A DNA stretch of 39,793 nt, taken from sequence record NC_048136.1, one strand, 5' to 3'. Of the stretch, positions 709 to 39,793 are shown one piece after another. The position numbers were made by a program, and so were the translations under genes. Source of the stretch: Escherichia phage Ro45lw. The notes beneath the pieces were generated by a model. The model ran no database searches and was not told the DNA's origin. It was given only the letters and a program-made list of their open reading frames with translations. The first letter of the stretch is position 1, and each line of letters begins with the position of its first letter.

Positions 709-932
709 GTACCACATCGAAACGACAGTGAAGCCTAACACTGAAACAGGCTAGCGAGGCGACGACAGCTAAGCGAATGTTCTTTAACAATCTGGATAAC
801 TCTTAATGTGCGCCGATAGCAAGCGACTAACTACAGGGTCTTTGAGTCTACCGCGAGACGGGCTTGACTTGAGCGACTGAAGGCCCTGACTGATAGTCAC
901 TAACACACAATTAACTTTGAGAGGATATAACT

Positions 933-1589: not shown

Positions 1590-1715
1590 ATGTACCAGAT
1601 AACTTATAGCAGTGAACAGGCGTTCTACGATGGGTGCTACGAGATGATGAAGCGCGGGGCTTGCTACATGGCTAATCACCATAGCTTGACCATAACACTG
1701 ACTGGCGGGTATTGA
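1590..1715 (+). CDS. Small early ORF, 41 aa
   Basis: ATG two bases after the preceding stop, same strand, position of T7 gene 0.5; no recognisable domain. Confidence 0.35.
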   Translation: MYQITYSSEQAFYDGCYEMMKRGACYMANHHSLTITLTGGY

Positions 1716-1873
1716 GTGATAGGCGAGAGGCCACTACATCTAGTGGTCTCAAAGATTATTACTCACAACATATAGAGGTGAACTATGAACATTGGTTACT
1801 GGGTGTGCTTATCTCCGGTCATCTTCCTAATAGCTTTAGGCCTACTGGACGCAATCAAGCGAGGGTCTCTGTA

Positions 1874-2399: not shown

Positions 2400-2422
2400 A
2401 CTAAACTATCACTAAAGGACTC
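2400..2422 (+). promoter_or_regulatory. Phage-RNAP promoter-like element (variant CACTAAAGG) upstream of the RNA polymerase gene
   Basis: CTAAACTATCACTAAAGGAC differs from the genome consensus at one position (-2 T to A); overlaps the inverted repeat 2408-2417 / 2461-2470. Confidence 0.45.
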
Positions 2423-2497
2423 AAGGTCGAAAGACTCTAAGTCAGGACTGAAGTGAAAGACTTTAGTGATAAGACAATAGTTATAAGGACTTTAAGT

Positions 2498-5482: not shown

Positions 5483-5505
5483 CCTAAACTATCACTATAG
5501 GATTA
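5483..5505 (+). promoter_or_regulatory. Phage-RNAP promoter (phi1.1-like)
   Basis: CCTAAACTATCACTATAGGATTAG, consensus match. Confidence 0.75.
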
Positions 5506-5546
5506 GACTCAAGGTCATGACTCAAAGTCGTGGCCTTCATGATTAA
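5504..5546 (+). promoter_or_regulatory. RNase III-type processing hairpin (R1.1-like)
   Basis: TAGACTCAAGGTCATGA...TGGCCTTCATGATTAA; AAGGTCA pairs with TGGCCTT with one G-U; the motif recurs at 12465 and 36121. Confidence 0.5.
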
Positions 5547-5577
5547 CCCTAAATAAACACTACTGGAGATTTAACCG

Positions 5578-6026: not shown

Positions 6027-7093
6027 TGACTACGACTATCAAAACCAACCCTCACCGCGCTGTAGATTACTCTGAGTCTGGCGTTAAGAAAGCACTGGCT
6101 GCTGCTGGGTCTCTCGAAGCTGAAGTGAAGTACGATGGTGTCCGGTTGAATCTTCCGGTCTACCCTGATGGTCGTACTGAATGGTTAAGTCGTGAGTCAA
6201 AACCACTGCCAGCCTTAGACCACTTATCAACAGTTGGTCAGGACATCGGTGCTTGTCGCGCGTCAGACTGGCGTTGGTTCCTGAAGCAAGCAGGGCATGA
6301 GGTATCTGGCTTGATGATTGATGGCGAGGTGATGGTCAAAGGCGTAGACTTCAACACGTCCTCAGGTCTTATCCGCACCATGTGGTCTGACCGCAAGAAC
6401 TACGAGTGGAACATGAACCCTAAGGCCGATATGGAGACCAAGAAGTCTAACAAGGTTCCATTCCAGATTAGCCCTGAGTTCCTACAAGTGGTCGTCTACG
6501 GGGTCATCGACCTTAACGTCATCCTCGACCCTAAAGCCGAAGGTCCTATCCATAGCGTCACACGCCTGAAGGCCGAAGCTATCGTCCCTCTCCTCCAGAA
6601 ATACTTCCCTGAAATCGACTGGGTTCTGTCTGAGTCACACACGGTCTATGACCTTGAGTCGCTCAACTCCCTGTACGAAGAGAAGCGTCTGGAAGGACAC
6701 GAGGGTCTGGTAGTCAAGGACCCTCTGGGTAAATACAAGCGCGGCAAGAAGTCAGGCATGTGGAAGATGAAGCCTGAGGAGACCATCGACGGGACAGTGT
6801 GTGGCCTCGTGTGGGGGACTCCGGGTAAGGCCAACGAAGGTAAGGTGATTGGCTTCGAGGTGCTGCTTGAAGACGGCATGGTGGTTAATGCTTGCGGTCT
6901 GACTGAAGAACAGAAGGACGAGTTCACTGCTGCGGTATGTGACCATGAGTCTGGCGTAGCTGGAATGGAGTTCGCTTACCAAGGCTGGCAGTGTGAAGTC
7001 CTCTTCATGGAGCGGTTCCCGGATGGCTCCCTTCGTCATCCCAGCTTCAAGTGCTGGCGTGGAACGGAAGACAATCCAACAGTTAAGAGTTAA
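6026..7093 (+). CDS. 1.3: ATP-dependent DNA ligase
   Basis: IKTNP...KYDGVR (adenylation lysine motif), EGLVVKDP, KRGKKSGMWKMKPE, SLRHPSF align with T7 ligase; ATG 6026 overlaps the 1.2 stop; the ORF track start at 6011 is the alternative. Confidence 0.9.
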   Translation: MTTTIKTNPHRAVDYSESGVKKALAAAGSLEAEVKYDGVRLNLPVYPDGRTEWLSRESKPLPALDHLSTVGQDIGACRASDWRWFLKQAGHEVSGLMIDGEVMVKGVDFNTSSGLIRTMWSDRKNYEWNMNPKADMETKKSNKVPFQISPEFLQVVVYGVIDLNVILDPKAEGPIHSVTRLKAEAIVPLLQKYFPEIDWVLSESHTVYDLESLNSLYEEKRLEGHEGLVVKDPLGKYKRGKKSGMWKMKPEETIDGTVCGLVWGTPGKANEGKVIGFEVLLEDGMVVNACGLTEEQKDEFTAAVCDHESGVAGMEFAYQGWQCEVLFMERFPDGSLRHPSFKCWRGTEDNPTVKS

Positions 7094-11919: not shown

Positions 11920-12450
11920 ATGCGTAATCTCATAAGCGGCAAGACCCTCATTGAGTTCCAGAATCAGCTTGGCCCTAAGGAGGGCCTTAGCGTCTTCACT
12001 ACCCGTTGCACCGGGAGAACTAAGGGCCGCGCACTACTGGTCATCTCCACGGTCATGGCCCAAGGTTCTATGGACATCGGGCCTCTGCGTGGTAATCTAG
12101 GTGACGATGAGGTCAATCAGACCAAGGTGGAAATCATCAAGTCCCTTGACCAGATGCAGCTCGTGGGCTTCTCGTGGTCTGGTGACGTCCTGTCTTACTA
12201 TCCATTTGAGGAGTATCAAGATGTTAAAGAAGTGGTCCGAGAAGTTGAGGTCCAAGTATCACCTTTCGCTGGCGAAGTGGTATCACCACGAAGCTACCGT
12301 GTTGTCGAACATTCTGAAGGACCAGCGCTTCCAGTCGATAGCTTGGAACAAAGCTACCCAGAAGTGCGCGTATCATCTGGCGAGAGTCCTGTAGTCCCGA
12401 TGGAGGTCATCGAACCTCTGGTCCCGGACATGACGCCTCCGAACGCTTAA
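11920..12450 (+). CDS. Hypothetical protein, 176 aa (gene 4.3-4.7 region)
   Basis: Strong RBS AAGGAG before ATG; acidic and proline-rich C-terminus; no recognisable domain. Confidence 0.5.
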   Translation: MRNLISGKTLIEFQNQLGPKEGLSVFTTRCTGRTKGRALLVISTVMAQGSMDIGPLRGNLGDDEVNQTKVEIIKSLDQMQLVGFSWSGDVLSYYPFEEYQDVKEVVREVEVQVSPFAGEVVSPRSYRVVEHSEGPALPVDSLEQSYPEVRVSSGESPVVPMEVIEPLVPDMTPPNA

Positions 12451-12467
12451 CTATCACTGTAGGATAG
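12445..12467 (+). promoter_or_regulatory. Phage-RNAP promoter upstream of DNA polymerase, variant CACTGTAGG
   Basis: GCTTAACTATCACTGTAGGATAG. Confidence 0.65.
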
Positions 12468-12504
12468 ACTCAAGGTCATTCACATCGAGTGGCCTTTATG
12501 ATTA
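12465..12504 (+). promoter_or_regulatory. RNase III-type processing hairpin
   Basis: TAGACTCAAGGTCATTC...TGGCCTTTATGATTA, same motif as 5504 and 36121. Confidence 0.5.
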
Positions 12505-12522
12505 GACTATAGGAGATTAACC

Positions 12523-14538
12523 ATGATTGACTTACAGAACATCTGGGGTTCGGACATCGAGACCAACGGTCTCCTTGACACCGTGTCCCAGTTCCACTGT
12601 GGGGTCCTGATTAACGCCGAGTCGAACGAGACCCTGAAGTATGGGGTGGTGCCGATGGTCGGTATCGTCGGTGGCTTTAAAGAGTATGTGGAGAAGGTCG
12701 AGCAGATTGCAGCGACTCCGCATGGACTGCTGGTCTTCCACAACGGTATTAACTATGACGTTCCAGCGATTGACATCCTGAAGCGTAAATACTTTGGGAA
12801 GCGTTTCAACTTTCCGAAGCAGAAGATGATAGACACGCTGGTCATGGGACGCCTGATGTATCCGAACATTAAGTTCTCGGACATTGGGGCTGTGAAAGCT
12901 GGTCGTCTTCCTCCGAAGATGATGGGCCGACAGTCGCTTGAAGCGTGGGGATACCGTCTCGGTGAGATGAAGGGCGAGTACAAGACCGATTACATTGCCA
13001 AGTGCAAGGCCGAGGGTATCGAATATAAAGCTGGGGACGAATGGTTGTTCCCTAGCCAAGAGATGCTGGACTATAACGTCCAAGACGTTGTGGTCACTCT
13101 GGCCTTGTTCAAGAGGTTCCTGACCGACAAGTTCTACTTCGGGACACCTGAAGCCGGACTTGAGGCTGTGTACGCGTTGCGTCTTGAACACGATGCTGCA
13201 TGGGCCTGTGCGAAGATGGAGCGCAACGGCTACCCGATGAACTCGGAGATAGTCGAAGGCTTGTATCGTGAGCTGTCTATTAAACGAGCTGAGCTGCTGG
13301 ACAAGCTGCGTTCGACCTTTGGTAGCTGGTATGCGCCGAAGGGTGGCAAGGAGTTCTTCAGACATCCGAGGACTGGAGTTGACCTGCCGAAGTACCCGCG
13401 AGTCGTGTACCCGAAGGTCGGGGCCATCTTCAAGAAGCCGAAGAACAAAGCACAGCGCTTAGGTCTTGAGCCTTGTGAGCGAGACTCCCGTGATACTATG
13501 GAAGGCGCACCGTTCACACCGATTACATTCGTTGAGTTTAATCCGGGTTCCGGGGACCACTTAGCGAGGGTGCTGATGGAACGCGGATGGGAGCCTGTGG
13601 ACTTCACGGAGACCGGGAAACCTGTAGTCGATGACGAGGCGCTGGAGAACGTCCATCTGGCAGACCCAGACGCTCAGGCTTGCGTAGAGCTGGTCCGAGA
13701 GTATCTGGTAGTCCAGAAGCGTATCGGTCAGGCGGCTGAAGGCAAGAACGCATGGCTGAAGCTCGTGGGTCCTGACGGAAGGATGCACGGGTCGATTAAT
13801 CCTTGTGGTGCTGTGACTGGACGTGCGACCCATAGTTCACCAAACATGGCTCAGGTCCCAGCTAACGGTGCCCCATACGGTGAGACTTGCCGTGGTGCTT
13901 TCGGTGCAGCGTGGAACAAGACTGACGGTAAGCCAGACCCTTGGATTCAAGTTGGTGTGGATGCTTCGGGTCTTGAGCTTCGTTGTCTGGGGAACCGTGC
14001 GTCCCCGTTCGATGGTGGTGAATATGCGAAGACTGTGGTCGAGGGAGACATCCACTGGGCTAATGCGGTCAACGCCGGGTTAGCACCTAACGTCCCACGC
14101 GACAAGTCCAGCCACGACCACGATGCTTTCCGTAACAACGCCAAGACGTTCATCTATGCGTTCCTGTATGGTGCAGGGGCCTCGAAGATTGGACTGATAG
14201 TCGGCGGTGGTAAGAAGGAAGGTTCGGCCCTGATGAAGAAATTCATTGAGGGTACGCCAGCTATCAAGGACCTGCGAGAGGCTGTGCAGAACACGCTAAT
14301 CTCCGAGTCCAAGTGGGTAGACGGTGAGAACATTGTGAAGTGGAAACGTCGCTGGCTGAAAGGTCTGGACGGTCGACGCATTCACATCCGGTCGCCACAC
14401 TCAGCACTTAACGCCTTGCTTCAGGGTGATGGTGCGGTTGTCTGTAAGCACTGGATTGTCGAGACCGAGCGTATGCTCGAAGAGGCCGGGTATGTCCACG
14501 GCTGGGATGGAGACTTTGCGTACATGGCATGGGTGCAT
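12523..14538 (+). CDS. 5: DNA polymerase, exon 1 (codons 1-672)
   Basis: Collinear with T7 gp5 (IETNGL, exonuclease motifs, thioredoxin-binding region, KTFIYAFLYGAG, HGWDGDFAYMAWVH); the reading frame hits TAA right after WVH although T7 continues. Confidence 0.9.
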
Positions 14539-15136
14539 TAACATCATGGTGCACATTAAATCTGGTGAACTCGGTGAACTCCTAATGGGACAATACCGAG
14601 CCAAGCCATAGGGAGGATGTATGAGAGGCAAGAAGTTAATTCTTGAGGCCACTGAGACTGGCTGCATAATCCCTACGTCACATAAATTGAATCAGGATGG
14701 ATACTTCCGAAAGAGGACTAACGGTGTCCTTGAGATGTATCATAGAACTGTATGGATTAAAGCTAATGGTCCAATACCTGACGGTTTCGAAGTAGACCAC
14801 AAGTGTCGTAATAGAGCTTGTTGCAACGTCGAACATCTACAAGTATTAGACCGGGACTCACACTTAGTCAAGACCAACCAAGAGCGATACGCTGCTAGGA
14901 AGCTAGAAGCACGAGACTACTGGGTAGAGACTGGGTGTACTGGAACGAAGTTAGCCGAAGTATTCAATGTGTCGTTCTCAGCCGCCTGTGGGTGGATTAG
15001 AGAGTGGAAGGCGTAGAGACTATCCGAAAGGAGTAGGGCCGTGGGTGAGATTCCCACGTAACCCGAAGCGCCAGACAGTCACCTCAAAGACTGATGATAT
15101 AGTCCGACACTTCCAGTAATGGGAGAATACAGAAAG
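14539..15136 (+). mobile_element. Putative group I intron (598 nt) carrying an HNH homing endonuclease gene
   Basis: Separates two segments that together encode an intact T7-like DNA polymerase; 5' exon ends in T, insert ends in G; P1 candidate 14533-14538/14549-14554; R-like AGAGACTA (15013-15020) and S-like GATATAGTCCGAC (15097-15109). Confidence 0.75.
14621..15016 (+). CDS. Intron-encoded HNH homing endonuclease, 131 aa
   Basis: RBS GGGAGG; HNH-type motif GPIPDGFEVDHKCRNRACCNVEHL; AGA/AGG/ATA-rich codon usage unlike neighbouring genes. Confidence 0.8.
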   Translation: MRGKKLILEATETGCIIPTSHKLNQDGYFRKRTNGVLEMYHRTVWIKANGPIPDGFEVDHKCRNRACCNVEHLQVLDRDSHLVKTNQERYAARKLEARDYWVETGCTGTKLAEVFNVSFSAACGWIREWKA

Positions 15137-20080: not shown

Positions 20081-20962
20081 ATGTCTCAATCAGTTTATGC
20101 CGAGTTCGGCGTTAGCCCTAATGCAATCACTGGTTCCGTTGAGGACCTGAACGAACACCAGCGGTCTATGCTTGAGCAGGACGTAGCAGTTCGCGATGGC
20201 GATGACGCTATTACCTTCAAGCAACTGGAAGCCGAGAACGAAGAGGCTACCGAAGAAGACGAAAACGTCGAAGAGACTGAAGGTGACGATACTGAAGGTA
20301 ACGACGATGAGTCTGATACCGAAGGTGAGGACCAAGAGTTTGTCGAACTGGGTGAAACTCCTAAAGAGCTGACCGAAAGTGTCACCGCTCTTAACGAGAA
20401 CGAAGCTGCCTTCGACGACATGGTGTCTGCTGCTGTAGAGGCTGGCAAGGTCACTGCCGATGACATCGCCGCTATTAAGGCCGAATATACCTCTAAAGGT
20501 GAGCTGTCCGAGGCATCCTATGCTAAGCTGGCTGAAGCTGGTTACACAAAGCGCTTCGTCGATTCATTCGTCCGTGGTCAGGAAGCTCTGGCTGAGCAGT
20601 ATGCTGCTGGTGTGGTTCGCTACGCTGGTGGTGCTGAGCAGTTTAACCGCATCCTGTCACACCTTGAGTCCAACGACCCGTCAACTCGTGAAGCACTGGA
20701 AGCTGCTATCGTTCGTAAGGACATTGCGACTACCAAAGCTCTGCTGAATCTGGCTGGCAAGACTCTGGGTAAAGCTGTAGGCGTTAAACCTCAGCGTACC
20801 ATCACCACTCAGGCCAAACCTGTGGTCGCACCTAAGGCTCCTCAGACCGAAGCATTCAGCTCTAAGGCTGACATGATTAAGGCTATGAGTGACCCGCGCT
20901 ACCTGCGTGACGCTAAGTACACGATGGAAGTTCGCGCTAAGGTTGCAGCGTCTAGTCTGTAA
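20081..20962 (+). CDS. 9: Capsid assembly (scaffolding) protein
   Basis: Acidic N-terminal half and conserved C-terminal region typical of T7 gp9; RBS AAGGAG. Confidence 0.85.
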   Translation: MSQSVYAEFGVSPNAITGSVEDLNEHQRSMLEQDVAVRDGDDAITFKQLEAENEEATEEDENVEETEGDDTEGNDDESDTEGEDQEFVELGETPKELTESVTALNENEAAFDDMVSAAVEAGKVTADDIAAIKAEYTSKGELSEASYAKLAEAGYTKRFVDSFVRGQEALAEQYAAGVVRYAGGAEQFNRILSHLESNDPSTREALEAAIVRKDIATTKALLNLAGKTLGKAVGVKPQRTITTQAKPVVAPKAPQTEAFSSKADMIKAMSDPRYLRDAKYTMEVRAKVAASSL

Positions 20963-23041: not shown

Positions 23042-25411
23042 ATGCCGTTATACACACAAAGCATAAAAAATCTTAAGGGGGGCATTAGCCAACAGCCGGA
23101 CATCCTGAGGTTCTCAGACCAAGGTGAGCAGCAGATTAACGGCTGGTCATCCGAGAGTGACGGGCTACAGAAGCGACCACCTACCGTCTGGAAGAAGAGG
23201 CTGGCGGCGGTGAACGAGACCATCCCGAACAACGCTAAGTTCCATCTGATTAACAGGGACGAGAACGAGCAGTATTATATCGTCTTCACAGGAAAGGAAA
23301 TCATGGTCTTTGACCTTGAGGGGAACCAGTACACTGTTTCAGGTGTAACGGACTACGTGAACACTTCCAAGCCGCGTGACGACATCCGGGTCATTACAGT
23401 AGCTGACTACACGTTCGTAGTGAATCGCCGAACTGTGGTGGCTCAGGGGACAACTAAGGCAAACCCTACCTACAATATGAAGAACCGAGCTTTGATTAAC
23501 CTTCGTGGTGGTCAGTATGGTAGATTGCTGAAGGTAGGAATTAATGGCGGGACAAAGGTTGAGCACCAGCTTCCTCCGGGAGATAACGCCAAAGATGACC
23601 CACCTAAAGTCGACGCTCAGGCTATCGGCAAGGCGTTGGTGGACCTGCTTGTGGTGGCCTATCCAAACTACACGTTCACCCTTGGGTCTGGCTACATCGA
23701 GATTAAAGCCCCAGCAGGGACCGACATCAACTCGGTGGAGACTGAGGATGGCTATGCCAACCAGCTCATCAATGCGGTACTTGATACTGTGCAGACTATC
23801 AGTAAGCTCCCTCTGGCAGCGCCTGAAGGATACATCATCCGCATTCAGGGTGAGACTAACAGCTCAGCAGATGAGTATTTCGTGAAGTATGACTCTGCGA
23901 AGAAGACTTGGCGCGAGACTGTTGAGCCTGGGACTGTAACGGGATTCGACGCATCAACCATGCCACACGCTCTGGTCAGACAGGCAGACGGGAACTTTAC
24001 GTTCCAGACCCTAGACTGGACTGAGCGTGGCGCTGGTAACGATGAGACCAACCCGATGCCTAGCTTCGTGAACTCTACGATTAACGATGTGTTCTTCTAT
24101 CGTAACCGCTTAGGGTTCCTCTCCGGCGAGAACGTCATTATGTCCCGGTCTGCTGGATACTTTGCATTCTTCCCTAAGAGCGTGGCGACCCTCAGTGATG
24201 ATGACCCGATTGACGTAGCTGTGAGTCATCCTCGAATCTCCATCCTGAAGTATGCTGTACCGTTCGCAGAACAGCTACTACTGTGGTCTGATGAGGTGCA
24301 GTTCGTGATGACCAGCTCCGGGGTTCTGACCGCCAAGTCCATCCAACTTGATGTAGGCTCTGAGTTCGCTGTTAGTGATAATGCTCGACCGTTTGCCATT
24401 GGACGTTCAGTCTTCTTCGCTGCTCCTCGCGGCTCGTTCACCAGCATTAACCGTTACTTTGCGGTGGCTGATGTCACAGACGTGAAGGACGCGGACGATA
24501 CGACCGGGCATGTGCTGTCTTACATTCCTAACGGAGTATTCGACATCCAAGGGTCCTCTACTGAGAACTTCATCACCGTGTCTACTGAAGGCGCTCCGAA
24601 CAAGCTGTTCATCTACAAGTTCCTCTTCAAGGATGGCGTACAGCTTCAAGCCTCGTGGTCGCACTGGGAGTTGGAGCAAGGGGAGCAGATTATGGCCTCA
24701 GCCTGTATAGGGTCCGCTATGTACATAGTACGTAAGCATGGCTACGGAGTTGACTTGGAAAAGCTGGAGTTCATCAAGGAGGCTGTTGACATCGGAGGGG
24801 AACCATACCGCCTCCATCTTGACGGTAAAACCACTATGGTCATCCCGACTGACGCGTTCAACCCTGACACGTACACCTCTTCCTTCGACGTTGGTGCGGC
24901 CTATGGTGGTGTTTTCCCTCCAGCAGGTAAGTATGTCATGGTCGACTCCAGTGGGCGCTTCGTGCAGCTGCCGGATACCGTATGGTCCAGCACTCGGTGG
25001 GTGACTGTTAAGGGAGACTGGTCAGGTAAGACCGTGTTCCTCGGTCGCGTCTATAAGTTCACCTACGCCTTCTCTCGGTTCCTCATTAAGTATGAAGACC
25101 AGAACGGGACGGTGACTGAAGACTCAGGTCGACTACAGCTTCGCCGCGCTTGGGTGAATTATCAGCACACTGGCGCGATGGTGATGCGTGTAGTCAACCA
25201 TCACCGTGAGTTCCTGAACACGCTGAACGGCTACAAGCTGGGCCTACAGGACATCGGTCGGGTCGACATCGGTGACGGTCAGTTTAGGTTTCCAATGAAC
25301 GGAGATGCTCTGCACACTCGGCTAATCCTTGAGTCAGACTATCCGACCCCATTGTCCATCGTCGGTTGCGGCTGGGAGGCTTCATACGCCCGTAAAGCCA
25401 AAGCTATCTAA
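23042..25411 (+). CDS. 12: Tail tubular protein B
   Basis: QSIKNLKGGISQQPDILR, VTVADYTF, DGYADQLIN, LQLRRAWVNY, GCGWE match T7 gp12. Confidence 0.95.
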   Translation: MPLYTQSIKNLKGGISQQPDILRFSDQGEQQINGWSSESDGLQKRPPTVWKKRLAAVNETIPNNAKFHLINRDENEQYYIVFTGKEIMVFDLEGNQYTVSGVTDYVNTSKPRDDIRVITVADYTFVVNRRTVVAQGTTKANPTYNMKNRALINLRGGQYGRLLKVGINGGTKVEHQLPPGDNAKDDPPKVDAQAIGKALVDLLVVAYPNYTFTLGSGYIEIKAPAGTDINSVETEDGYANQLINAVLDTVQTISKLPLAAPEGYIIRIQGETNSSADEYFVKYDSAKKTWRETVEPGTVTGFDASTMPHALVRQADGNFTFQTLDWTERGAGNDETNPMPSFVNSTINDVFFYRNRLGFLSGENVIMSRSAGYFAFFPKSVATLSDDDPIDVAVSHPRISILKYAVPFAEQLLLWSDEVQFVMTSSGVLTAKSIQLDVGSEFAVSDNARPFAIGRSVFFAAPRGSFTSINRYFAVADVTDVKDADDTTGHVLSYIPNGVFDIQGSSTENFITVSTEGAPNKLFIYKFLFKDGVQLQASWSHWELEQGEQIMASACIGSAMYIVRKHGYGVDLEKLEFIKEAVDIGGEPYRLHLDGKTTMVIPTDAFNPDTYTSSFDVGAAYGGVFPPAGKYVMVDSSGRFVQLPDTVWSSTRWVTVKGDWSGKTVFLGRVYKFTYAFSRFLIKYEDQNGTVTEDSGRLQLRRAWVNYQHTGAMVMRVVNHHREFLNTLNGYKLGLQDIGRVDIGDGQFRFPMNGDALHTRLILESDYPTPLSIVGCGWEASYARKAKAI

Positions 25412-25497: not shown

Positions 25498-25980
25498 ATG
25501 TATATTCGTAAAGCTACTGAACAGGATGTATTGTCCTTCGAAATTGCTATAGATGACGTTAATGAGCTGATGGCGAATGACCCACGGAGAGACCTTGAGT
25601 CTGTCCTACTATCTCACCTCACTCCGTCATCTGTGGTTTTGGTCGATGCGCTGGGGACAGTATACGCCTATGGTGGAAACCAAGGTGATAACGTCTGGTT
25701 CGTTACCTCCCGTCTTGTCTCAAGGCTTACCAGAGCAGAGAGACGTGAGTTCGTCCAGAGAATCGCTGAGTACAGAGACTTAAGGTTAGACCAGTATCCG
25801 GTCCTTTGGAATTACGTTTGGGAAGGGAACAGCAGTCACATTAGGTTCCTAAAGATTCTTGGGGCAGTGTTCCACGAAGAGTGGACCGAGAGTCCTGTTA
25901 CGGGAGAGAGGTTCCGGCTATTTACCATGTCAAGGAGTAATAATGAAAGTATGCGTAAGGTGCGGGGAGCTGAAGGATAG
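25498..25980 (+). CDS. gp13-like internal virion / assembly protein, 160 aa
   Basis: Position equivalent to T7 gene 13; ATG with RBS AGAGGAG; similarity to T7 gp13 is from memory only (LWNYVWEGN..HIRFLK..GAVFHEE). Confidence 0.6.
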   Translation: MYIRKATEQDVLSFEIAIDDVNELMANDPRRDLESVLLSHLTPSSVVLVDALGTVYAYGGNQGDNVWFVTSRLVSRLTRAERREFVQRIAEYRDLRLDQYPVLWNYVWEGNSSHIRFLKILGAVFHEEWTESPVTGERFRLFTMSRSNNESMRKVRGAEG

Positions 25981-33636: not shown

Positions 33637-35646
33637 ATGGCTAACTCTACGCTGACTAAGTTCCCGTCTGGTCGGGTTCAATATAAGATTAACTTCCCGT
33701 ACCTAGCCCGTGCGTTCGTTGTGGTCACGCTTGTGGTCTCTACGGACCCGACGAAAGACAAGGTGCTGGTCGTAGGGAATGACTATCGGTTCCTCAACGA
33801 GACAACCCTTGAGATTCTGGCAGACCAGACCGGATTCGATATCATCCAGATTCACCGATTCACTTCGACAGAGCTGGTGGTAGACTTCCGTGATGGCTCG
33901 GTGCTGACTGCAAGCGACCTGTCCACAGCGGAGATTCAGGCCATCCATATTGCCGAAGAGGGTCGTGACCAGTCCATCAACCTAGCGTCCGGCTACACTG
34001 AGGAGGCCAAGAAGTACGCCGATGAAGCCAGTGATGCTCTGGAAGGCATTAAGGACATCGTTCAGGATGGGAACTTTGATACTACCTTGCGTCAGGACCT
34101 TCGTAGCGATACAGGCCTTTCCATGATTCACCGCAAGCTGCCGGACATTGGGGCTGTTAACGTTGGGATGGACGCCCTGTTCGGCAATATGCTCAACCCA
34201 GTAGACTTCGGGGCGGACCCGACTGGCAGTGTTGACTCTTACGCAGCTCTCCAGAAGTGGGCCGATGCATGTACTTCGCGTCCTTGGGCCTATGCGTTCA
34301 TCTCAGGCATCTTCAAGGTCAGCCAGCCAGTTACCTTCAGGAACATTAGAGGCATGACAATTTACGGACATTGCTACATCTACCCAACCTTTGACCAAGG
34401 GGACTACGTTGTGGGATTCTGCAACGGAGCAGGGCTACGTATTCACGGTCGGTTCGAGGTGTCTGGACAGAACAAGGTTAGCATTAAGACTGGTGTTAAG
34501 ATTTGGTCGGACATGAATCCTAACGGTTTCTCCTTCAGTTACTTCTATGGAATGTGTGTGTCCGATGCTAATCCGGGTATTACCCTTGGTGATACTCGAT
34601 ATGCTAACGCACTTCTCTCTGAGCTGTCCTTCATTGGTGGATATACCGTAGGAACCCCATGCTCAATTAAAGCTATCGGCACTCAATGCTACTTCAACGT
34701 GATTGGATTCGATGCGGTGACTGGGGGTGCTGGCGATTTAGCACAGGTAACGCCGTATACCTACCACCTTAAGGGTGCTCAGATGAAAGTCATTGGCGGA
34801 GAGATTCAGCATAATGATTCAATCGTGGGTGCTGCAATACTGTTGGAGCCTATCGTCGACCCTGTGCATGGCAACACCTATGGTAACGTTACAGTGGATC
34901 AGAGCCACTTTGAGGTTGCTAGTACGTGGGTTATGGTGGCAAACCTTGACGGAGTTCCTAACCCAATCAGCCACCGTTCGTCTGTGACGTTAATCGGACT
35001 TCACGGTTACCACAATCAGGATAATGGACCTGTGGTCTTGGTCCATGAGTCAGCTGATGATTATCGTGGCACAATCGTGACCCGTGACATCTCAATGTAC
35101 CGTGGAGACGATTCACCGGACCGTGTGAACATGAACATTCAGGCCCGCAACGCTTACGTCGATTATGACCGCAAGGGATTCGGTAAAGGCTTCGTGAGAG
35201 GACTTCAGGCTGTTCAGGGTGGAGTACTTAAGTTCGAGAAGTCCACTATATGCATCGCTCAGAACTCAGTAGGTCAGACTCATACGACTGCACCTAACAA
35301 CGTTCTGTACACCCAGTTCATCGCCAATGGGGACACTGACCGCTGGTCTTCCAACTACAATCCTGCGACTGGTGAGTTTACTGTTCCGGCTGGTGGGCTA
35401 AAGGATGTTCATGTGGAGGCAACTGTGGAGGTCGCTAGTTCAAGTCAGGTGACTATGGCTGTCTACGTGGACAACGACCGTAAGAACCTCGTTCAGACCC
35501 TGCCTGTAGCTGGTAACACTTCTGCATATCTGGGTCACCTCCCAGCAGGGGCTAAGATTAGCGTTAAGTGTCAGCTAGGTACTGGCTCAGGTGCATCTAC
35601 TGGCGCAGGTCTTGACCGAATGGTCATCACCGCTTCAAACTATTAA
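33637..35646 (+). CDS. 17: Tail fibre / tailspike with T7-like N-terminal anchor and beta-helix (pectate-lyase-like) C-terminal region
   Basis: N-terminal ~150 aa align with T7 gp17 ([33 protein letters not shown]); downstream [24 protein letters not shown] resembles pectate-lyase-type depolymerase domains. Confidence 0.85.
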
Positions 35647-35856: not shown

Positions 35857-36116
35857 CGCAGATGGACTTAGAGAAGTTCCTCTTAATGCTGGACACTGAA
35901 CGTGCTCGACTCATGCTGCAAGACCTGCGGGATGACTCCAAGCGTTCACCTCAGCTTTATAACTCCATCGAGAAGCTTCTGGCCCGTCACAACTTTGTGT
36001 TGAGCAAGGTGTCTGTGGACGAGAAGCAGTTGGCAGACATGGAGGCGCTGAACAGGGAGTACGATAAGGTGCTCTCAGCTACTGAGGATAATGACACCGG
36101 GTATGGTGTACAGTAA
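35853..36116 (+). CDS. 18: Terminase small subunit
   Basis: FLLMLDTERARLMLQDL...RSPQLYNSIEKLLARH aligns with T7 gp18. Confidence 0.85.
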   Translation: MTQMDLEKFLLMLDTERARLMLQDLRDDSKRSPQLYNSIEKLLARHNFVLSKVSVDEKQLADMEALNREYDKVLSATEDNDTGYGVQ

Positions 36117-36120
36117 GTGT

Positions 36121-36167
36121 TAGACTCAAGGTCATCTACTACATATAGTGGGTGGCCTTTATGATTA
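36121..36167 (+). promoter_or_regulatory. RNase III-type processing hairpin
   Basis: TAGACTCAAGGTCATCT...GGTGGCCTTTATGATTAA, third copy of the motif. Confidence 0.5.
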
Positions 36168-36218
36168 ACACTATGCGAGATGCGCTCTCGTGAAATCTGA
36201 GAAACAAGGAGGGCAACT

Positions 36219-39603: not shown

Positions 39604-39793
39604 TCTCACAGTTCAAGAACCTCAAGTCTCCCCATAGGCCCTCTTTCAGTCCAGACTCAAGGCCCTACCCCTAGACCTTCGGTCTAAACCTCAAGTCTTT
39701 GACCCAAGGTTGACCCGAAGTCTGGACCGATATGGCCTATATCTAGTGGCTGGGACGATGGGTCGGGACTATATGTTGTGTCTCCGAGTCTCT
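39604..39793. repeat. Right direct terminal repeat (190 bp)
   Basis: Exact copy of bases 1-190. Confidence 0.9.

What the first reader, a model, noticed from the sequence alone, without database searches (positions are those of the whole stretch)
5504..5546. Three copies of a conserved hairpin motif (AGACTCAAGGTCAT...TGGCCTTTATGATTA), likely RNase III sites
Near-identical elements occur at 5504-5546, 12465-12504 and 36121-36167, each just upstream of a gene start. AAGGTCA pairs with TGGCCTT with a G-U wobble, resembling T7 RNase III sites. The shared flanks (TAGACTC, ATGATTA) are more conserved than pairing alone needs, so a protein-recognition role is possible. The 9-mer GACTCAAGG also recurs at 49, 2419, 21006 and in the right terminal repeat.
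Basis: seen in the sequence. Interest (0 to 1): 0.45.

Follow-up and report, generated by a model that had tools for sequence, protein, structure and literature searches.

The report
T7-type RNase III processing hairpins

Summary
Three near-identical elements lie at 5504-5545, 12465-12504 and 36121-36167 on the + strand, where fewer than 1.5 approximate matches are expected by chance.

The window is a complete T7-like (Kayfunavirus-like) phage genome. Each element folds on the sense strand into lower stem, 4-nt/5-nt internal loop and upper stem.

The core ACUCAAGGUC...GUGGCCUUUAUGAUUA is the same as in T7 sites R0.5 and R1.1. Stem and loop of the copy at 12465 equal those of T7 R1.1, the standard RNase III test substrate.

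The three copies sit where T7 and T3 have R1.1, R4.7 and R18.5: after gene 1 before genes 1.1/1.2, before gene 5, and between genes 18 and 18.5. A covariance model built from T7 and the window recovered 8 of the 10 RNase III stem-loops annotated in T3.

Across 123 distinct homologues, 96% of cells pair and all 17 pairs covary.

The "over-conserved flanks" are the internal loop and lower stem of the signal. Most other copies of the 9-mer are unrelated.

Verdict: already known, low interest. Cleavage in this phage has not been tested.

The parts
5498..5552 (+). RNase III processing hairpin, orthologue of T7/T3 R1.1. The core motif is 5504-5545. The predicted scissile bond is between 5540 and 5541, in the 3' side of the internal loop.
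   Evidence: Exact motif. Fold -20.2 kcal/mol, z -4.38. Covariance model 62.8 bits. Collinear with promoter-R1.1-gene 1.1 in Dev2, K1F, T7 and T3. Lies downstream of the RNA polymerase gene and upstream of the gene 1.1-like ORF and gene 1.2 (dGTPase inhibitor).
12459..12511 (+). RNase III processing hairpin at the T3 R4.7 position, immediately upstream of gene 5 (DNA polymerase). The core is 12465-12504. The predicted cut is between 12499 and 12500.
   Evidence: Exact motif. Fold -15.5 kcal/mol, z -3.50. 63.6 bits. The 10-bp upper stem and the internal loop are identical to T7 R1.1. T3 annotates R4.7 at 12970-13018, just before gene 5 at 13043.
36115..36174 (+). RNase III processing hairpin, orthologue of T7/T3 R18.5, between gene 18 (small terminase) and gene 18.5 (Rz-like spanin). 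The core is 36121-36167. The predicted cut is between 36162 and 36163.
   Evidence: Exact motif. Fold -26.0 kcal/mol, z -6.37. 63.8 bits. Gene identities. The T7 sequence at the same position is homologous. T3 annotates R18.5 at 35038-35088.
1714..1765 (+). Diverged hairpin of the same architecture in the early region. It is a candidate early RNase III site at an R0.5-like position.
   Evidence: 32.4 bits, E 1.3e-7. Fold -26.5 kcal/mol, z -5.67. Orthologous hits in K1F at 1767-1820 and in Dev2 at 1808-1859.
821..903 (+). Weak candidate RNase III site upstream of the first gene (ocr-like gene 0.3), an R0.3-like position. It has a long branched upper part.
   Evidence: 19.1 bits, E 0.0028. Fold -31 kcal/mol, z -3.78. 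K1F has a hit at 1031-1084 before its gene 0.3.
5487..5501 (+). Phage RNA polymerase promoter core (AACTATCACTATAGG). Its initiating region forms part of the 5' lower stem of the R1.1-like hairpin.
   Evidence: One of 12 promoter matches, against 0.65 expected. The arrangement is the same as T7 phi1.1A/R1.1 and T3 phi1.1/R1.1.
12449..12463 (+). Phage promoter core (AACTATCACTGTAGG) immediately upstream of the R4.7-like hairpin.
   Evidence: 1 mismatch to the consensus; sequence.

Best explanation
The three elements are intercistronic processing signals for the host double-strand-specific endoribonuclease RNase III, in the polycistronic sense transcripts of a T7-like phage. They are orthologues of T7/T3 sites R1.1, R4.7 and R18.5.

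Shown here: each element folds into an upper stem of 10-14 bp that starts with the invariant AAGG/CCUU block and a U.G wobble. Below it is an asymmetric 4-nt/5-nt internal loop (ACUC / UAUGA), then a covarying lower stem.

Inferred from the T7 literature: RNase III binds the helix, and because of the internal loop it cuts only one strand, in the 3' side of the loop. By register with T7 the predicted bond is UAU^GA, i.e. after 5540, 12499 and 36162.

The upstream RNA then keeps the hairpin at its 3' end, which protects it from 3'-5' exonucleases. The downstream RNA (genes 1.1/1.2, gene 5, genes 18.5/19) gains a new monophosphate 5' end close to its ribosome-binding site. This can change its translation and decay.
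For: Sequence identity to T7 sites:
- R0.5 has the same TAGACTCAAGGTC...GTGGCCTTTATGATTA.
- R1.1 has the same upper stem and internal loop as the copy at 12465.
- Alignment A1 shows 13 invariant core columns across 3 window and 6 T7 sites.

Structure:
- The consensus structure has 17 pairs, 10 of them with compensatory changes, and a 4/5 internal loop. This matches the '4 nt/5 nt asymmetric internal loop' described for R1.1 (PMC6121014).
- Fold z-scores are -3.5 to -6.4.

Independent validation of the model:
- The model was built without T3. Its T3 hits coincide with the annotated 'RNase III recognition site' stem-loops R0.3, R0.5, R1.1, R1.3, R4.7, R6.5 and R18.5, and weakly R1. It gave no strong off-target hit.

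Synteny:
- K1F and Dev2 have the same three sites at the same gene junctions.
- The R1.1 region is collinear among the window, Dev2, K1F, T7 and T3.

Family-wide covariation:
- In 123 distinct sequences, 96.4% of cells are paired (77% in shuffles, 29-51% with slid partners). All 17 pairs show double changes.

Strand specificity:
- The hits above the model's noise level (19-64 bits) are all on the + strand. The only reverse-strand match to a hairpin is 9.5 bits at 1713-1764, and the other minus-strand matches have E >= 3.2.
- The antisense strand folds worse: -17.0, -8.4 and -13.2 against -20.2, -15.5 and -26.0 kcal/mol.
- U.G is the commonest pair at two positions. So the structure belongs to the sense RNA.

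Mechanism from the literature:
- Internal loops limit cleavage to one phosphodiester, and the resulting 3' hairpin protects against 3'-5' exonucleases.
- The proximal box prefers GC, AU, AU, and a UA/UG distal box is preferred (PMC1540722).
- T7 has ten RNase III sites that process its polycistronic transcripts (PMC6938266).
Against: No experiment exists for this phage. The host is unknown, so cleavage is inferred by homology only.

The exact scissile bond rests on T7 cleavage coordinates that I recalled from Dunn & Studier 1983. I did not retrieve them here. They do all fall on the same model position in seven T7 sites, which is a consistency check.

In copies 1 and 3, the ninth pair above the internal loop is G-C or C-G, where R1.1 and copy 2 have U-A. 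If that pair belongs to the distal box, such changes weaken binding in a minimal substrate (PMC1540722). Natural T7 sites also vary at that pair.

T7 grows without RNase III (PMC6938266), so the biological benefit of the cuts is modest or conditional.

Transcripts that start at the adjacent promoters lack the outermost part of the lower stem. They may therefore be processed differently from read-through transcripts.
Confidence: 0.92

Rival explanations
1. The elements act as DNA: palindromes that extrude as hairpins or cruciforms during replication. They could be an origin component, a recombination signal, or a trigger or decoy for host defence such as Lamassu/DdmABC. On this view they do not act as RNA signals.
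For: In T7 the R1.1 hairpin lies inside the fragment known as the primary replication origin. A plasmid fragment carrying that T7 RNase III site, and similar palindromes from a vibriophage, trigger DdmABC-dependent death in either orientation (PMC11707656). T3 annotates its primary origin next to phi1.05/R1.1.
Against: The structure is strand-asymmetric. U.G or G.U is the commonest or a very frequent pair at several positions, and these become C.A mismatches on the other strand. The antisense folds are much weaker; copy 2 has z -0.76. The covariance model gives at most 9.5 bits on the reverse strand of any hairpin. The sites lie at intercistronic junctions that match experimentally mapped RNA cleavage sites in T7. 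A DNA-level side effect, such as being sensed by a defence system, is compatible with the RNA function and does not replace it.
Confidence: 0.04
2. The hairpins are transcription terminators or pause sites for the host or the phage RNA polymerase.
For: They are stable G+C-containing hairpins in intergenic regions. One related phage record labels the homologous R18.5 region 'terminator' (H46).
Against: No U-run follows any of them, and the terminator scan finds none in the three regions. Two of them lie directly downstream of a promoter and directly upstream of essential genes, so termination there would be counter-productive. The conserved internal loop and lower stem are not features of terminators.
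Confidence: 0.02
3. The conserved loop and flank bases are the operator of a phage-encoded or other RNA-binding protein, acting as a translational regulator of the downstream gene, independent of RNase III.
For: ACUC and UAUGA are more conserved than the neighbouring helix pairs, even in distant low-GC T7-like contigs where AAGG/CCUU has changed to AAAG/CUUU or AGAG/CUCU. [quoted passage not shown]
Against: No candidate protein is known. The same motif precedes unrelated genes of all three temporal classes. The hairpins end 18-52 nt before the start codons and do not sequester the Shine-Dalgarno sequences. The conservation is equally explained by selection for single-strand cleavage and its precise position in vivo.
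Confidence: 0.02

Closest known systems
[quoted passage not shown]
   Same: The core sequence is the same: ACUCAAGGUCAUUC...GAGUGGCCUUUAUGAUU. The 10-bp upper stem and 4/5 internal loop of the copy at 12465 are identical to R1.1. The copy at 5504 occupies the same position: promoter, then hairpin, then genes 1.1/1.2.
   Different: The apical loops and the tops of the upper stems differ, with compensatory changes. The lower-stem sequences also differ. T7 has a second functional promoter (phi1.1B) and an AT-rich origin region after R1.1, where the window has only a degenerate promoter-like sequence.
T7 R0.5, R4.7 and R18.5, and the T3 stem-loops annotated 'RNase III recognition site' R4.7 and R18.5
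   Same: T7 R0.5 has the same 13-nt 5' block and 16-nt 3' block. T3 R4.7 lies directly before gene 5, and R18.5 lies between genes 18 and 18.5, like the window's copies 2 and 3. All are recovered by one covariance model.
   Different: In T7, R4.7 precedes promoter phi4.7 and gene 4.7. In the window a promoter precedes the hairpin and gene 4.7 is absent. The window's R18.5 copy has a longer upper stem of about 14 bp.
Sites in Kayfunavirus genomes (K1F, Dev2, IMM-002 and others)
   Same: The three sites are nearly identical and sit at identical gene junctions. At the R18.5 locus IMM-002 is 96% identical to the window.
   Different: There are only point differences in apical stems and loops. These records do not annotate the hairpins.
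Double-cleavage RNase III substrates (rRNA 30S precursor stems, lambda sib, fully paired dsRNA)
   Same: The same enzyme acts, with the same requirement for about two helical turns.
   Different: Those substrates are cut on both strands with a 2-nt 3' overhang. The T7-type internal loop restricts cutting to one strand (PMC1540722).

Membership tests
T7-group single-cleavage RNase III processing signals (R1.1 type) | Irregular hairpin made of an upper stem of about 10 bp, an asymmetric 4-nt/5-nt internal loop and a lower stem | tested here: met
   Single-sequence folds and the consensus structure give 4 unpaired nt (ACUC) opposite 5 (UAUGA or CAUGA) in all three copies. The 4/5 loop is described for R1.1 in PMC6121014.
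T7-group single-cleavage RNase III processing signals (R1.1 type) | Conserved core sequence shared with experimentally mapped T7 sites: CUCAAGG ... GUGGCCUU(U/C)AUGA | tested here: met
   Alignment A1 with T7 R0.3, R0.5, R1.1, R1.3, R4.7 and R18.5 has 13 invariant columns, and the copies are identical to R0.5 and R1.1 over the core.
T7-group single-cleavage RNase III processing signals (R1.1 type) | Helix base pairs compatible with the E. coli RNase III proximal and distal box preferences (GC, AU, AU next to the cut; UA/UG wobble higher up) | tested here: met
   Reading up from the loop, the pairs are A-U, A-U, G-C, G-C, U.G, C-G, A-U, U.G in all three copies. The preferences are taken from PMC1540722. 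The ninth pair up is U-A only in copy 2 (G-C in copy 1, C-G in copy 3); natural T7 sites vary there too.
T7-group single-cleavage RNase III processing signals (R1.1 type) | Sense-strand, intercistronic location at junctions syntenic with known sites (R1.1, R4.7, R18.5) | tested here: met
   Gene identities, T3 annotation, K1F and Dev2 hits and the collinear alignment. Strand asymmetry.
T7-group single-cleavage RNase III processing signals (R1.1 type) | Structure maintained by compensatory substitutions across homologues | tested here: met
   In 123 distinct homologues, 96.4% of cells are paired, 17 of 17 pairs show double changes, and no shuffle of 500 reaches the observed score. Caveats: the alignment was fitted to the model, and part of the set was collected with a core-sequence pattern.
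T7-group single-cleavage RNase III processing signals (R1.1 type) | Actual rnc-dependent cleavage at one bond in the 3' side of the internal loop | not testable with these tools
   This needs RNA end mapping in wild-type and rnc-mutant hosts, or in-vitro cleavage. The positions 5540/5541, 12499/12500 and 36162/36163 are predicted by register with T7 coordinates recalled from Dunn & Studier 1983.
Rfam-curated RNA family | Match to any Rfam 15 covariance model at the gathering threshold | tested here: not met
   There were 0 matches in the whole window. None of Rfam's 4227 models reached its gathering score at these hairpins, so Rfam offers no family to place them in. This is not evidence against the interpretation.
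Intrinsic (rho-independent) terminators | G+C-rich hairpin followed directly by a U-run | tested here: not met
   No terminator-like site was found in any of the three regions. The hairpins are followed by AUGAUUA...

The most novel reading that the evidence does not exclude
The unpaired loop bases ACUC/UAUGA stay almost invariant across distant T7-like phages, while the adjacent 'recognition' base pairs drift with compensation. This is more conservation than RNase III is reported to need in vitro. It could reflect a second, undescribed constraint. One possibility is recognition by another host or phage factor. Another is a DNA-level role of the palindrome in replication or in interplay with hairpin-sensing defence systems such as Lamassu/DdmABC, which a T7 RNase III-site fragment is known to trigger.
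Probability: 0.08. Interest if true: 0.45.

Novelty: already known. Interest (0 to 1): 0.1.

Why it matters
It matters mainly for annotation. These hairpins are unannotated in the related phage records examined here (K1F, Dev2 and most of those listed), and one record labels the equivalent hairpin a terminator. Marking them gives the likely mRNA boundaries for genes 1.1/1.2, 5 and 18.5/19 in this phage.

The covariance model built here recovers annotated T3 sites cleanly. It could be used to annotate such sites across T7-like phages, since no Rfam model matched them.

Nothing here changes the current understanding of RNase III or of T7 biology.

Tried and rejected
- **Rfam scan of the whole window:** no family matched, so Rfam gave no help.
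- **Extra 9-mer copies as further sites:** rejected. The copies in the terminal repeats (51, 39654) and in the phi10 leader (21000) are not conserved in K1F. The folds at 2418 and 21000 are not significant. The model gives only 8.3 bits (E = 9) at the phi10 leader and nothing at the others.
- **Minus-strand 9-mers:** the four copies lie inside genes, all in the frame C-CTT-GAG-TC, and share no extended context. I treat them as coding or compositional coincidence, though four in one frame is more than I would expect.
- **T7 GenBank records:** NC_001604 and V01146, as served here, do not list the RNase III features. I used the T3 record's stem_loop annotation instead.
- **Papers not held:** Chelladurai et al. 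1991 (PMC328101) and the Court et al. 2013 review (PMC6311387) could not be read. A search for R18.5 with R1.1 found nothing.
- **Terminator, DNA-palindrome and separate-operator readings:** considered and rejected; see the rival explanations.

Full report
**What the window is.** It is a complete T7-like phage genome with direct terminal repeats: the first ~188 bases recur at 39606-39793. The gene order is the T7 order: ocr-like 0.3, RNA polymerase, 1.1/1.2, ligase ... DNA polymerase ... small terminase, Rz-like spanin, large terminase. Its nearest relatives in the phage collection are Kayfunavirus members (Dev2, SFPH2, SH4, GA2A, K1F) at about 86-91% identity. At the R18.5 locus, phage IMM-002 is 96% identical. 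Twelve copies of a phage-polymerase promoter core AACTATCACTATAGG are present, against 0.65 expected.

**Check of the observation.** The 15-mer TAGACTCAAGGTCAT occurs exactly three times, at 5504, 12465 and 36121. Its partner TGGCCTTTATGATTA occurs at 12490 and 36153, and with one change at 5531. Chance expectation for approximate matches is about 1.4 and 0.5, and for exact 15-mers it is effectively zero. The elements end 18-52 nt before the starts of a gene 1.1-like ORF (5579), DNA polymerase (12523) and the Rz-like spanin (36219).

**Structure.** On the sense strand each element folds as lower stem, internal loop and upper stem. The energies are -20.2, -15.5 and -26.0 kcal/mol, with z-scores -4.4, -3.5 and -6.4 and no shuffle folding as well. 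The reverse complements fold markedly worse (-17.0, -8.4 and -13.2). This is because several pairs are U.G wobbles, so the structure belongs to the sense RNA. No U-run follows any element, and a terminator scan finds nothing.

**Identity with T7 sites.**
- T7 site R0.5 reads TAGACTCAAGGTCGCTCCTAGCGAGTGGCCTTTATGATTA. It has the same 13-nt and 16-nt blocks as the window elements.
- T7 R1.1 reads ACTCAAGGTCATTCGCAAGAGTGGCCTTTATGATTG. Its whole 10-bp upper stem and internal loop are identical to the window copy at 12465.
- R0.3, R1.3, R4.7 and R18.5 share the same core.
- In the nine-sequence alignment, 13 core columns are invariant.
- The consensus fold has 17 pairs with a 4-nt/5-nt internal loop, and 10 pairs show compensatory changes. 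R1.1 is described in the literature as a hairpin with "an asymmetric (4 nt/5 nt) internal loop" and a primary cleavage site used in vivo and in vitro (PMC6121014).

**Position.** The T3 record annotates ten stem-loops as "RNase III recognition site":
- R1.1 directly follows promoter phi1.1 and precedes gene 1.1.
- R4.7 lies directly before gene 5.
- R18.5 lies between genes 18 and 18.5.

The window's three copies sit at exactly these junctions. The R1.1 region aligns collinearly among the window, Dev2, K1F, T7 and T3.

**Model-based test.** I built a covariance model from the three window copies and six T7 sites. It was then run on T3, which was not used for training. Its hits coincide with the annotated stem-loops:

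| T3 site | Score (bits) |
|---|---|
| R0.5 | 66.7 |
| R4.7 | 61.5 |
| R0.3 | 55.1 |
| R1.1 | 52.0 |
| R6.5 | 46.0 |
| R18.5 | 44.4 |
| R1.3 | 33.5 |
| R1 | 16.2 (weak) |

There were no strong off-target hits. R3.8 and R13, which are of a different shape, were missed.

K1F and Dev2 each show the same three sites at the same junctions, plus one or two early-region sites.

In the window the model finds the three copies at 63-64 bits. It also finds two diverged early-region hairpins: 1714-1765 (32.4 bits, z -5.7) and 821-903 (19.1 bits, z -3.8). These are plausible equivalents of R0.5 and R0.3. Every other match, on either strand, is at noise level (at most 9.7 bits, E of 3.2 or more).

**Wider family.** A pattern scan of viral contigs returned 120 loci, mostly from contigs of 38-41 kb. 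Model hits in 100 sources gave 149 sites, of which 123 are distinct:
- 96.4% of cells are paired, against 76.7% in shuffles and 29-51% with slid partners.
- All 17 pairs show double changes.
- Caveats: the alignment is fitted to the model, and the collection was seeded with the core pattern.

In genomes not selected by the pattern, and in secondary sites of distant low-GC contigs, the loop bases ACUC/UAUGA remain nearly invariant. This holds even where AAGG/CCUU has drifted to AAAG/CUUU or AGAG/CUCU. [quoted passage not shown]

**Mechanism.** This part is inferred from the literature, not shown for this phage.
- E. coli RNase III recognises about two helical turns, with proximal-box and distal-box base-pair preferences: GC, AU, AU next to the cut, and UA/UG above.
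[quoted passage not shown] - T7 has ten such sites that cut its polycistronic transcripts. T7 can nevertheless grow without RNase III (PMC6938266).
- The T7 cleavage coordinates that I recall from Dunn & Studier 1983 (890, 1468, 5887, 13892, 18563, 36856) all lie 12 nt from the 3' end of the model hits. That corresponds to UAU^GA. The seventh recalled coordinate, 6450 for R1.3, lies 10 nt from the end of its hit in an R1.3 loop that differs in sequence.
- This register predicts cuts after 5540, 12499 and 36162 in the window. That step rests on memory plus the register and is marked as such.

**Rivals.** A DNA-palindrome role is suggested by the report that a T7 RNase III-site fragment triggers DdmABC/Lamassu (PMC11707656). 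It cannot explain the strand asymmetry and could only be an additional effect. The terminator and separate-operator readings lack support (geometry).

**The other 9-mers.**
- The copies in the terminal repeats (51, 39654) and in the phi10 leader (21000) are not conserved in K1F.
- The four minus-strand copies lie within coding sequence.
- The copy at 2418 follows a promoter-like sequence. It resembles the promoter plus the 5' arm of the R1.1 cassette, without a 3' arm, and is conserved in K1F and Dev2.

**Verdict.** The feature is the well-known T7-type RNase III processing signal. Novelty: already known. Interest: low.

Noticed in passing
window 14529-15126: The DNA polymerase gene (gene 5) appears to be interrupted by a group I intron that carries an HNH homing-endonuclease ORF (14621-15016, Pfam HNH_3, E 9e-16). 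Rfam Intron_gpI scores 35.8 bits (below the gathering score of 50, E 3e-7) over 14529-15126. K1F annotates its gene 5 as joined from two pieces with an internal HNH endonuclease.
   Followed up: partly
window 2404-2430: A phage-promoter-like sequence (AACTATCACTAAAGG, 1 mismatch) lies just upstream of the RNA polymerase gene. It is followed at once by GACTCAAGGTC, the 5' arm of the RNase III motif, with no 3' arm. The arrangement is conserved in Dev2, and in K1F where the promoter is canonical TATAGG. It looks like a half-copy of the promoter-R1.1 cassette. The local fold is not significant (z -1.15).
   Followed up: partly
window 5543-5572: Directly after the R1.1-like hairpin comes TTAACCCTAAATAAACACTACTGGAGA. 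This resembles the promoter upstream of the hairpin (TTAACCCTAAACTATCACTATAGGA) and aligns with T7 promoter phi1.1B. It is probably a degenerate second promoter, and it is conserved in K1F and Dev2.
   Followed up: partly
window 1714-1765 and 821-903: These are two diverged hairpins of the same lower stem/loop/upper stem design in the early region. They are probably the equivalents of T7 R0.5 and R0.3 (32.4 and 19.1 bits; z -5.7 and -3.8), with orthologues in K1F and Dev2.
   Followed up: partly
window 6652-6660, 20662-20670, 25327-25335, 25593-25601 (minus strand): Four antisense copies of GACTCAAGG lie inside genes (ligase, scaffold, tail tube B, gene 13). All read C-CTT-GAG-TC in the same codon phase on the coding strand. 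They share no extended context and are only partly conserved in relatives. This looks like more than chance, but I found no function.
   Followed up: partly
window 36121-36149: A sigma-70-like match (TAGACT-17-TATAGT, 9/12) overlaps the R18.5-like hairpin. T7 annotates a minor 'E. coli promoter E' at the equivalent place, 36836.
   Followed up: no
window 12504-12522: Between the R4.7-like hairpin and the gene 5 start lies GACTATAGGAGATTAACCATG. This matches the 3' half of a phage promoter (ACTATAGGAGA) and recalls T7, where phi4.7 follows R4.7. It may be a promoter remnant now serving as the ribosome-binding region.
   Followed up: no
L089 (IMGVR_UViG_3300032274_000058) 456-2417: A low-GC viral contig carries eight model hits within about 2 kb. 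All keep ACUC/UAUGA, but with AAAG/CUUU-type stems. This is an unusually dense cluster of RNase III-type hairpins.
   Followed up: no
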